From Octopus vulgaris (lineage: Eukaryota): 64,000 nt of DNA. A program made the translations under genes and the position numbers. The DNA lies in assembly GCA_951406725.2 (NCBI GenBank), contig OX597819.1, positions 100,440,001 to 100,504,000 on the forward strand, given 5' to 3'. The stretch's first letter is position 1. Every line of letters begins with the position of its first letter. Shown here piece by piece: positions 6,436 to 47,531 of the stretch. Under the pieces are notes generated by a model, which was given only the letters and a program-made list of their open reading frames with translations, had not been told where the DNA came from and did no database searches.

Positions 6436-6983
6436 GAAATATTAAAATTACTGAGTCTCTCTAAAGGAGTATACGGCCGCGTTACTGGAAATTAATAGTT
6501 ATCGCCATACTTATATGGCAGTCTTATAAATATAAGACTAAAGCTGTCGCTGATTAGCTCCAAGAGGCGACCGCCTCAAGCTAGCTATTTGACACACAAT
6601 CTGCGTCCATTATAAACCTTCGAACAGGGGAGGTCAGCCGCTTCATCCTGCCAGTCAGACAGCTGCAGACATGTTTCAGGGTATTTGCTCTTTATCAATG
6701 CAGCGTAGTCAGACCCAGCAGGTGTCGCTACTGACTGTCCCAGCTGTCTGCAGCTGTCTGACTGGCAGGATGAAGCGGCTGACTTCCCCTGTTCGAAGGT
6801 TTATAATGGACGCAGATTGTGTCAAATAGCTTGCTTGAGGCGGTGGCCTCTTGGAGCTAATCAGCGACAGTTTTAGTCTTATATTTATAAGACTGCCATA
6901 TAAGTATGGCGATAACTATTAATTTCCAGTAACGCTGCCGTATTCTCCTTTAGAGAGACTTAGTAATTTTAATATTTCTATTA
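6431..6983. repeat. About 240-bp fold-back inverted repeat adjoining (TA)n, PLE inverted-pLTR-like
   Basis: Arm 6431-6671 is the reverse complement of 6745-6983, with about 7 substitutions and one 2-nt indel by manual count. Confidence 0.95.
6662..6704 (-). ncRNA. Minimal type-I hammerhead ribozyme, U3:A8 variant
   Basis: gctgca-TTGATAA-agagcaaataccct-GAAAC AT GTC-tgcagc: 6-bp stem I, palindromic ACAUGU stem III, GUC cleavage triplet. Confidence 0.75.
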
Positions 6984-7924: not shown

Positions 7925-7931
<7 letters not shown>

Positions 7932-8045
7932 ATAATAAGAGTAAATAATTTCTATAAAGGCTTTTAAAAAAACCCCAATTATTTACTGGTATTGGGGTTT
8001 TTTTAAAAGCCTTTATAGAAATTATTTACTCTTATTATTATATTA
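7925..8045. repeat. About 55-bp perfect inverted repeat (hairpin) next to (TA)n
   Basis: 7925-7979 (taatataataataagagtaaa...ccccaat) pairs with 7991-8045 across an 11-nt loop. Confidence 0.9.
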
Positions 8046-14318: not shown

Positions 14319-14900
14319 GTAGAAATTGATATTGATCAATTAAAACCAGTGGCTTAGCATTTTTAATCCGAAGATTAAAATTATTTGACATATAAAATTT
14401 AGAGGATTGACCACTAAAAGTGGACAGCCTATATGCTAAACATAGACGTCAAATCGCCATTTACCACGAAGAATGTGTTCTCAAGAAAAATCCAAAGTGT
14501 AAAAATAAGCAAGACACATGAAAATATACGAAATAAAAAACGATTACCTATGTACCAATTGGTTTCACTTGTTAATATTTACGTATGTGGACACGCAAAC
14601 ATCTGCAAAATCATCAGCACAATCTGCCGTTTATAAAACACAATTTTCAGAACTAGATACAGAACGCTCAACCAAAATCCATCATGTATAAAGTTCTACA
14701 ATTTATATTTAGTAGCATCTTTCAAAAATCCTTTGCTTTGGCACGCTGAGATTAGAAACTACTCTGCAGTTAATAAACTACAGCAGTCAATTTACCCGTT
14801 AGAGAACATTTTTAAAATTTAAAATTGAATAAAGGGTAGAAATTGATATTAATCAATTAAAACCAGTGGCGTAGCATATTTTAAAGAATCTGAAGATTAA
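14313..14900 (-). mobile_element. About 520-bp HHR-bearing unit with about 65-bp terminal direct repeat (pLTR/retrozyme-like)
   Basis: taaag(g)gtagaaattgatatt..caattaaaaccagtggc.tagcat..gaagattaa occurs at 14313-14378 and 14829-14900. Related to 54235-54430 and 61730-61800. Confidence 0.75.
14548..14622 (-). ncRNA. Type-I hammerhead ribozyme, canonical core
   Basis: ttgtg-CTGATGA-(extended stem II)-GAAAC CAATTG GTA-catag. Stem III is the palindrome ACCAAUUGGU. Confidence 0.75.
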
Positions 14901-46589: not shown

Positions 46590-46628
<39 letters not shown>

Positions 46629-46631
<3 letters not shown>

Positions 46632-47276
46632 AGGAAAAATTTTTTAAAAATGCAGAATGCTCAAATGAAAGAAAATTTTAATAAAATGAGAAAATGATAA
46701 AATATATAAATATATATTTATTCAACCGGTTTTCGTCATTGTATGACTTGTCAAGAATATTTATGTTTTAAGAAGTTTTTTTAAAAATTAGAAAGGGGAA
46801 AAAAAAGAAAATTGCATTGTTTTTTGTAAAAGAATAATGATAAAAATGTACAAAAATTAAAAAATAAGTTCTCCGATACATTGTGAGTTCGTTGTGTATC
46901 TTGAGTTTTATGGTTGTTTACCAAAAATTACCTTGAGGTGTTAAGATCCAAAGGGATTAAGAGCATGTGATGTGTTGTGTTGTTAAATTCAGCATGTTGC
47001 AGGACAGGAAGTAGTAGTAGTAATTGTGGTCCTAGTTCTTCAGTTCCTGTGTTGTGAGTAAGGGAGACAACTCTTTTGAGTTCTTTCTTAAAACATAAAT
47101 ATTCTTGACAAGTCATACAATGACGAAAACCGGTTGAATAAATATATATTTATATATTTTATCATTTTCTCATTTTATTAAAATTTTCTTTCATTTGAGC
47201 ATTCTGCATTTTTAAAAATTTTTTCCTTACTTATCATTTCTCCACGTGCGGTCAACACAACCCCACCATTTATTGA

Positions 47277-47278: not shown

Positions 47279-47308
<30 letters not shown>

Positions 47309-47314
<6 letters not shown>

Positions 47315-47499
47315 AAGGAGCTTCTACAGGACTAGAACTGTTTCATTCAAAAGAAATCATCAGGAAGCGCTTCCTGATGATTTCTTTGAATGAAACAGTT
47401 CTAGTCCTGTAGAAGCTCCTTCTATAAAATAAATTAATTTACTCTGCTATGTATTGAGTACCTTATTTACTGTGGTTAACCCCGACTTAACCCGGGGCC

Positions 47500-47502
<3 letters not shown>
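47309..47502 (+). mobile_element. (TA)n-flanked element beginning with a 119-bp loopless palindrome
   Basis: 47309-47368 mirrors 47369-47427 with one 1-nt indel. The centre is gaagc|gcttc. Confidence 0.9.
47369..47416 (+). ncRNA. Type-I hammerhead ribozyme, canonical core (mirror copy at 47320-47368, minus strand)
   Basis: gcttc-CTGATGA-tttc ttt gaat-GAAACAG ttctagtc CTGTA-gaagc: 5-bp stem I, 4-bp stem III, GUA triplet. Confidence 0.8.

Positions 47503-47530
<28 letters not shown>

Positions 47531-47531
<1 letters not shown>

What the first reader, a model, noticed from the sequence alone, without database searches (positions are those of the whole stretch)
47309..47427. Loopless 119-bp palindrome made of two back-to-back hammerheads
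Seen: the palindrome centre (47368/47369) falls exactly at the 5' edge of stem I. The plus strand encodes an HHR in the right half and the minus strand encodes one in the left half. This HHR has a true 4-bp stem III and could work as a monomer. Inference: a transcript from either strand contains the ribozyme plus its antisense, giving a competing long hairpin that could silence cleavage or be an ADAR/Dicer substrate. The DNA could also form a cruciform.
Basis: partly seen in the sequence, partly recalled or inferred. Interest (0 to 1): 0.7.

Follow-up and report, generated by a model that had tools for sequence, protein, structure and literature searches.

The report
Penelope retrotransposon start-site run-off palindrome
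The palindrome is one of about a thousand mirror-image stubs of a Penelope-type jumping gene in this animal genome; it likely forms when both cut DNA strands copy the element's RNA up to its capped first base and are then joined, so its centre would mark where the element's transcription starts, not a purpose-built ribozyme switch.

Summary
The palindrome is real (60- and 59-nt arms, one-base indel) and each strand carries a hammerhead motif. It belongs to a 195-bp stub (47309-47503) of an endonuclease-bearing Penelope-like element with Hydra-clade motifs, inserted in (TA)n. At least 932 loci share a centre at the 5' edge of stem I. That edge (+1) behaves like a capped transcription start: a TATA box lies at -29; 24 of 61 copies that reach +1 stop there; a non-genomic G precedes +1 in 10 of 17 clean flank junctions. 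The arms end at two fixed AT-rich sites and match in subfamily, and in 14 of 59 pairs the inverted arm reaches further 5'. Best reading: twin priming on sense RNA, run-off at the cap, end joining. Only 17 palindromes centre on the cut site. The ribozyme is weak on paper and the stub has no promoter, so regulation is unlikely. Inverted Penelope ends are known, and this scan noted such palindromes elsewhere in this genome; the start-site explanation was not found in my searches and bears on an open question. No RNA start was observed.

The parts
47279..47308 (.). (TA)n microsatellite, left target flank
   Evidence: same flank in most family copies
47309..47368 (-). short arm: inverted copy of element positions +2 to about +61; its outer end lies at the AT-rich second priming site (family mode +68); carries the minus-strand hammerhead motif
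   Evidence: outer end +60..+72 in 62 of 64 inverted arms
47365..47372 (.). junction of the two arms, at the inferred transcription start (+1 is the A just upstream of 47369 in long copies and is absent here); this exact form is 2 of 54 listed junction loci, the 4-base overlap form 30 of 54
   Evidence: (hand count of the first 100 rows)
47369..47416 (+). type I hammerhead motif: stem I 47369-73/47412-16, core 47374-80 and 47392-95, 3-bp stem II with U-U at 10.1/11.1, 4-bp stem III with palindromic loop, predicted cut after 47411
   Evidence: cleavage not tested
47408..47426 (+). competing 8-bp hairpin that takes up the 3' strand of stem I
   Evidence: P 0.76-0.84 in family RNA of 60 nt or more
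47428..47503 (+). 'tail' on one arm only; in full-length copies it runs on into the 5' leader and ORF; ends at the first priming site, with a short match to the (AT)n target
47503..47531 (.). (AT)n microsatellite, right target flank; no target-site duplication can be read

Best explanation
The palindrome is a promoterless 195-bp stub of a Penelope-like retrotransposon, likely made when the element's enzyme cuts both strands of a (TA)n site, primes one cDNA from each strand at two internal sites near the 5' end of the element's RNA, both cDNAs run off the predicted capped first base, and repair likely joins the two ends head to head. Shown: family, ORF, (TA)n target, two fixed outer ends (+60..+72 and about +136), pile-up of inner ends at +1, TATA at -29, extra G at -1, arms that share subfamily. 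Inferred: that +1 is a capped Pol II start, that the G copies the cap, that both arms come from one RNA species, that microhomology joining (the self-complementary 4-mer at +1..+4) closes the junction. [quoted passage not shown] The hammerhead sits in the palindrome because it occupies the first 51 bases of the transcript; most templates were likely uncut.
For: Family: 5650 exact hits of a 32-mer, 4473 tail hits, at least 932 junctions at the stem I edge; reversed-pattern controls 0. Full-length tandem copies link TATA, +1, hammerhead, tail and a 713-codon RT plus GIY-YIG-type ORF. In 99 tail-anchored copies, 24 of 61 that reach +1 stop there, against 7 of 37 in the next 97 bases; 24 more end at +2..+14. 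TATA spacing is identical in 97 of 100 read-through copies whose spacer sequences differ, and -1 is G in 0 of 100; -32..-29 is the functional window in mouse (PMC1779604, abstract). G stands at -1 in 10 of 17 clean flank junctions (hand count; P = 0.003 against 25%), and in 3 of 4 promoterless copies that begin at +1/+2 and continue into the ORF. An extra G marks capped full-length L1 insertions (PMC11702581, passages). Arms agree at diagnostic sites in 35 of 35, 40 of 42, 43 of 44 and 46 of 47 pairs, shuffled means 18.5, 19.1, 27.0, 27.8; the inverted arm reaches more than 4 nt further 5' than the tail arm in 14 of 59 pairs. A purified Penelope protein cuts and extends both strands from two internal sites and needs no ribozyme cleavage (PMC11167929, main text). 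Control: in a second hammerhead family 0 of 30 arms end at the stem I edge.
Against: No RNA 5' end was seen: only contigs were served, no run is on record as RNA, and contigs from guessed RNA runs cross +1. The G could be untemplated addition at any RNA end; in many inverted junctions it can also be read from the other arm, so only 17 plus 4 junctions carry the test, and two of the 17 are a tandem pair. This locus itself shows neither the A nor the G. +1/+2 also looks like a splice acceptor. -29 is the edge of the window, which was measured in mouse. The tail-anchored sample is the first 52 Mb of one contig. D. virilis Penelope has a TATA-less internal promoter (PMC2377424, passages). Later deletion could also make arms unequal.
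Confidence: 0.75

Rival explanations
1. Structure-driven stop: reverse transcriptase stalls at the end of stem I, or the cDNA end snaps back on its own stem I complement, and the second arm is copied from the first.
For: The centre coincides with the stem I edge; the cDNA end is complementary to its own +46..+51 copy (sequence); 29 loci have the junction this would give.
Against: 29 against at least 932 loci; 2971 arms read through the edge; a second hammerhead family shows no stop there, 0 of 30; snap-back would add several templated bases, whereas a single G is seen; in 14 of 59 pairs the inverted arm is not a subset of the tail arm.
Confidence: 0.08
2. The edge is a splice acceptor, as in D. 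virilis where the intron end maps to the 5' end of helix I, and the junction reflects spliced RNA with a tiny first exon.
For: Pyrimidine-rich stretch and AG at +1/+2 in the read-through copies listed; PMC4209133 (parts 1-2).
Against: By eye none of 30 G-junction loci share an upstream exon sequence; only one extra base recurs; TATA at -29; no joints (contigs only, weak).
Confidence: 0.07
3. Self-priming on an antisense template, the model proposed for palindromic Penelope junctions.
For: PMC3846280 (passages) reads junction palindromes this way; a self-complementary 4-mer lies at the centre in 30 of 54 listed junctions.
Against: Does not predict the G at -1 in copies with no inverted arm, two fixed target-like outer ends or unequal arms in both directions; sense RNA is the working template in vitro (PMC11167929).
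Confidence: 0.06
4. A selected regulatory cassette: ribozyme plus antisense that silences cleavage or supplies dsRNA to ADAR or Dicer.
For: Very stable hairpin. A-to-G differences absent from the DNA run appear in contigs of one guessed RNA run, but from other individuals and other copies.
Against: About a thousand near-identical young insertions with ragged junctions; no promoter; this copy already carries three private changes; weak ribozyme fold.
Confidence: 0.03
5. Assembly artefact from folded-back reads.
For: Single-base deletions are enriched in palindromic arms; no locus-specific raw reads were seen.
Against: Asymmetric tail, unique flanks, one shared centre in hundreds of loci; contigs from four other runs hold the overlap junction and two listed contigs bridge the centre by 31 or more letters each side.
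Confidence: 0.01

Closest known systems
Hydra-clade Penelope-like elements (PMC8557442, section 11 and passages)
   Same: Single ORF, C-terminal endonuclease, RW[K/R], DKT, CxCX5C, CxxC and CxH motifs, hammerhead, (TA)n target, inverted 5'-truncated copy and one-sided tail.
   Different: Unit about 5.2 kb with a long microsatellite-rich 3' region (described families under 3 kb); tail about 70 nt, not 30-40; the hammerhead lacks G10.1-C11.1. No tree was built.
PAc Poseidon element of Anolis in vitro (PMC11167929, main text)
   Same: Both strands cut and extended, two internal priming sites that define the tail, AT-rich target, ribozyme cleavage not needed.
   Different: There the sites lie in the ORF and are 111-118 bases in; here they are about 70 nt apart in the 5' leader. 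The paper did not map the start site or describe run-off palindromes.
L1 twin priming and cap-derived extra G (PMC11702581, passages)
   Same: Second cDNA primed from the other target strand, end-joined inversion junction, extra G at complete 5' ends.
   Different: L1 primes first at the poly(A) tail and the second site is variable; here both sites are fixed and both cDNAs copy the same stretch, which gives a palindrome.
Minimal hammerheads of metazoan Penelope elements (PMC4209133, parts 1-2)
   Same: Type I core in the pLTR, short stem I, palindromic loop III, pairs on opposite strands close together.
   Different: Stem III has 4 bp and stem II only 3; G10.1-C11.1 is replaced by U-U.
Animal non-LTR retrozymes (10.64898/2026.07.22.740005, part 1 of 5)
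   Same: Non-coding hammerhead units derived from Penelope pLTRs; this family has such arrays of 271, 277 and 333 bp elsewhere.
   Different: The window copy is a single promoterless palindrome, not a tandem array.

Membership tests
EN+ Penelope-like element | single ORF with RT and GIY-YIG-type endonuclease linked to the repeat | tested here: met
   713-codon ORF with YRDD and VY..YIG follows the tail and precedes the next hammerhead; 765 homologues, one marked PF00078; Pfam scan gave no hit above cut-off
EN+ Penelope-like element | partial tandem or inverted pLTRs with one-sided tail | tested here: met
   59 of 71 truncated tail copies have an adjacent inverted arm
EN+ Penelope-like element | target-site duplication | tested here: inconclusive
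   masked by (TA)n
Hydra clade | DKT for DKG, RWK-like motif, CxCX5C linker, CxxC and CxH in the endonuclease | tested here: met
   against PMC8557442 section 11 (RWR here)
Hydra clade | (TA)n insertion bias | tested here: met
Hydra clade | placement in an RT tree with named members | not tested
   no named reference proteins fetched
Nematis or Neptune clade | CX2-5CxxC linker and DKG | tested here: not met
   DKT, no DKG, CxCX5C
Hammerhead ribozyme, type I | conserved core C3-A9, G12-A15.1, U16.1-H17 with three stems | tested here: met
   subfamilies vary at N7 and in loops II and III while the core is constant
Hammerhead ribozyme, type I | G10.1-C11.1 pair and stable stem II | tested here: not met
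   U-U plus 3 bp; pairing probability 0.01-0.27
Hammerhead ribozyme, type I | match to an Rfam hammerhead model | tested here: not met
   none listed at E up to 10
Hammerhead ribozyme, type I | self-cleavage | not testable with these tools
   needs an assay; 17 palindromes near the cut site are at most a weak hint
Non-LTR retrozyme | two or more tandem hammerhead units | tested here: not met
   window copy is head-to-head and single; arrays exist elsewhere
Capped Pol II TATA promoter | TATA at -32..-29 and mapped capped 5' ends | tested here: inconclusive
   spacing met, genomic G mark present, RNA ends not observable

The most novel reading that the evidence does not exclude
About a thousand palindromes are a fossil cap-mapping record of Penelope transposition: a dimeric enzyme primes both target strands on one capped sense RNA at two fixed sites, 5'-proximal priming gives strong-stop-like run-offs, and arm-private loss of the first base after the predicted cut (G46) and of G49 records the enzyme crossing a ribozyme-cut or stem-I-folded template in vivo. 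This would settle how head-to-head Penelope junctions arise and give a genomic trace of hammerhead activity.
Probability: 0.3. Interest if true: 0.75.

Novelty: new variant of a known kind. Interest (0 to 1): 0.5.

Why it matters
How Penelope elements make their inverted ends is open: one paper proposed self-priming on antisense RNA and called for tests (PMC3846280), another named the question as still to be solved (PMC8557442). This family gives hundreds of natural events with one start point, two priming points and a cap-like mark, which favours twin priming on sense RNA and predicts a precise start site that one experiment can check. It also shows that such ribozyme palindromes are promoterless by-products, and that long hairpins of this kind are scattered at high copy where read-through could expose them to editing or dicing.

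Tried and rejected
Rfam: only microsatellite and hairpin miRNA noise, no hammerhead. Pfam on ORF pieces and the whole ORF: nothing above cut-off. Nematis clade, my first guess: rejected on motifs. Unique locus, MITE or miRNA gene: rejected by the one-sided tail and the link to the ORF. Cleaved RNA as the usual template: 17 loci against at least 932. Sequencing runs: no RNA holder listed; contigs cannot show starts, strand or level; the A-to-G differences there are not taken as editing. No Penelope ORF of this family in the window. Host gene context of the insertion was not determined. Searches for the start-site or twin-priming reading in print and in this scan's notes found none; subscription papers, repeat databases and the supplements of PMC8557442, which may list this family, were not seen. 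Rows dropped before the count: one duplicate, one copy cut by the locus edge; one copy was reclassified as read-through.

Full report
Observation. The stretch 47309-47427 is a loopless inverted repeat with arms of 60 and 59 nt that differ by one base in a T run. It folds at -94.3 kcal/mol, z = -21.4. Both strands carry a hammerhead core with a 5-bp stem I that starts at the centre and a 4-bp stem III. It lies between two (TA)n tracts, with 76 further bases on the right. The genome has 2.8 Gb; it is likely an octopus, which I infer from size, microsatellite load and an earlier AI note and did not test.

A repeat family. A DNA search scored 40 of 296 candidates and all 40 loci matched nearly the whole query. 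A 32-mer from the arm has 5650 exact hits and the tail end 4473, with 0 for the reversed controls. A pattern for junctions at the stem I edge has 925 forward and 932 reverse hits; the first 100 rows are 54 loci, 30 with a 4-base overlap, 2 with the window's form, 22 with other short joins (hand count). Contigs of four other runs hold the overlap form, and two listed contigs bridge the centre. This is support for the family, not for this locus.

The parent element. Long copies continue upstream through 2.5-3 kb of microsatellite-rich sequence into the end of an ORF. Tandem copies show the order TATA, hammerhead, tail, ORF, 3' region, TATA, hammerhead, with a period of 5193 bp in one array. The ORF has 713 codons from its first Met, with RWR, DKT, YRDD, CxCX5C, YIG, CxxC and CxH, which matches the description of the Hydra clade (PMC8557442, section 11). 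Pfam gave no hit above cut-off; 765 homologues were found. No tree was built.

Where the copies end. I number the A that precedes window position 47369 in long copies as +1. I took the first 100 tail hits on contig 1, chosen without regard to the hammerhead. One was cut by the locus edge. Of 99, 14 end at +15..+100, 24 at +2..+14, 24 at +1, 7 in the next 97 bases and 30 read further (microhomology can shift a call by up to 4 bases). So 24 of 61 copies that reach +1 stop there, against about 0.2% per base upstream. 59 of 71 truncated copies have an adjacent inverted arm, whose outer end lies at +60..+72 in 62 of 64 rows (one row duplicated). The tail end at about +136 and the +68 end are both AT-rich and resemble the target. 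Long copies end at either site, so both look like priming sites.

Why +1. In read-through copies a TATA box starts at -29 with the same spacing in 97 of 100 rows although the spacer varies between subfamilies, and the base at -1 is never G. In mouse, TATA works at -32 to -29 (PMC1779604, abstract). Among 41 loci where the element abuts (TA)n near +1, 17 keep the A and have neither genomic nor inverted sequence before it: G in 10, C in 4, T in 2, A in 1 (hand count; P = 0.003 against 25%). I set aside 7 with inverted remnants, 3 with genomic upstream, 1 with a tail remnant and 13 without the A, 5 of which still have a G at the junction. A non-G-G-+1 pattern has 493 hits; none of 30 inspected had promoter sequence upstream, but in many the G can be read from the other arm. 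Of 25 copies that continue into the ORF, 20 keep the promoter, 1 starts at -10 and 4 start at +1/+2, 3 of them with an extra G. An extra G marks capped full-length L1 insertions (PMC11702581, passages). A second hammerhead family, one copy of which lies beside the finding, is a control: 0 of 30 arms end at its stem I edge. I infer that +1 is a capped start. It was not observed in RNA.

How two arms arise. The arms agree at four subfamily sites (35 of 35, 40 of 42, 43 of 44, 46 of 47; shuffled means 18.5, 19.1, 27.0, 27.8), so they share a source. The inverted arm reaches more than 4 nt further 5' in 14 of 59 pairs and the tail arm in 9, while only the tail arm has +73..+136, so in those 14 pairs neither arm can be a copy of the other, unless later deletion did it. 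The snap-back junction occurs at 29 loci. A purified Penelope protein cuts and extends both strands, starts at two internal sites and does not need ribozyme cleavage (PMC11167929, parts 1-2). Twin priming near the 5' end of the RNA, run-off and end joining explains the stub. Inverted truncated ends and tails are known (PMC8557442, passages). PMC3846280 (passages) explained junction palindromes by self-priming on antisense RNA and left the question open; it also noted a putative TATA box in a rotifer pLTR. D. virilis Penelope has a TATA-less internal promoter (PMC2377424, passages), and its intron ends at the 5' end of helix I (PMC4209133), which keeps the splice rival alive.

The ribozyme. The core is invariant across subfamilies while N7 and loops II and III vary, which suggests selection on the motif in the parent. 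But G10.1-C11.1 is replaced by U-U, stem II has 3 bp, Rfam does not list it, and a hairpin at +42..+60 lowers stem I pairing to 0.08-0.24 in family RNA of 60 nt or more. Loop III is palindromic, as in dimer-type Penelope hammerheads (PMC4209133). Only 17 palindromes centre near the cut site, so templates were mostly uncut or were crossed. Monomer activity is possible but unproven.

Unexplained. One arm often lacks G46, the first base after the predicted cut, or G49: 18 of 105 scored arms in short palindromes against 1 of 59 long arms, 555 hits in the genome, 28 of 30 inspected in palindromes and 22 of those on the short arm. Read error in hairpins should hit both arms alike, which argues for biology, but two of the 28 extend past +1, and the short-read contigs could not test it at a 5% threshold.

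Verdict. The layout is a known Penelope footprint, and earlier notes of this scan describe similar palindromes, the short-end and long-end rule and twin priming in this genome. What this family adds is a sharp inner end with a TATA box and a cap-like G. Searches (listings only, apart from the papers cited) found no paper with this reading; supplements were not read. For 10.64898/2026.07.22.740005 I saw part 1 of 5. Confidence: Penelope stub about 0.97; start-site run-off by twin priming 0.75.

Noticed in passing
window 46624-46774 and 47085-47234: Inverted pair of a second hammerhead-like family (U3-A8 type core, palindromic CCGG), about 150-bp arms; 463 exact hits of a 22-mer; no pile-up of ends at its stem I edge.
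   Followed up: partly
window 14540-14625, minus strand: Hammerhead motif with a long stem II, again U-U at 10.1/11.1, and a palindromic loop III.
   Followed up: no
window 6560-6856: Inverted repeat of about 110-bp arms around a minus-strand U3-A8 hammerhead variant at 6698.
   Followed up: no
window 7925-8045: Perfect 55-bp inverted repeat with an 11-nt spacer next to (TA)n.
   Followed up: no
L316-L326 (C2:64.63 Mb), L331-L341 (C5:37.48 Mb), C8:91.48 Mb: Head-to-head tandem arrays of 277, 333 and 271 bp; the two units read are built from this family's TATA box, hammerhead, tail and ORF start: retrozyme-like derivatives that keep the promoter.
   Followed up: partly
L330, L344, L236, L237: Short head-to-tail repeats in which a new unit restarts at +1, twice with an extra G, as if the enzyme jumped to another RNA after run-off.
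   Followed up: partly
L272-L301: Arm-private deletions of G46 and G49 beside the predicted cut site, enriched on the short arm of palindromes; biology or read error is unresolved.
   Followed up: partly
listings: Some junctions show G followed by T, G or C in place of the A at +1, perhaps misincorporation next to the cap; the window's centre could be such a form.
   Followed up: no
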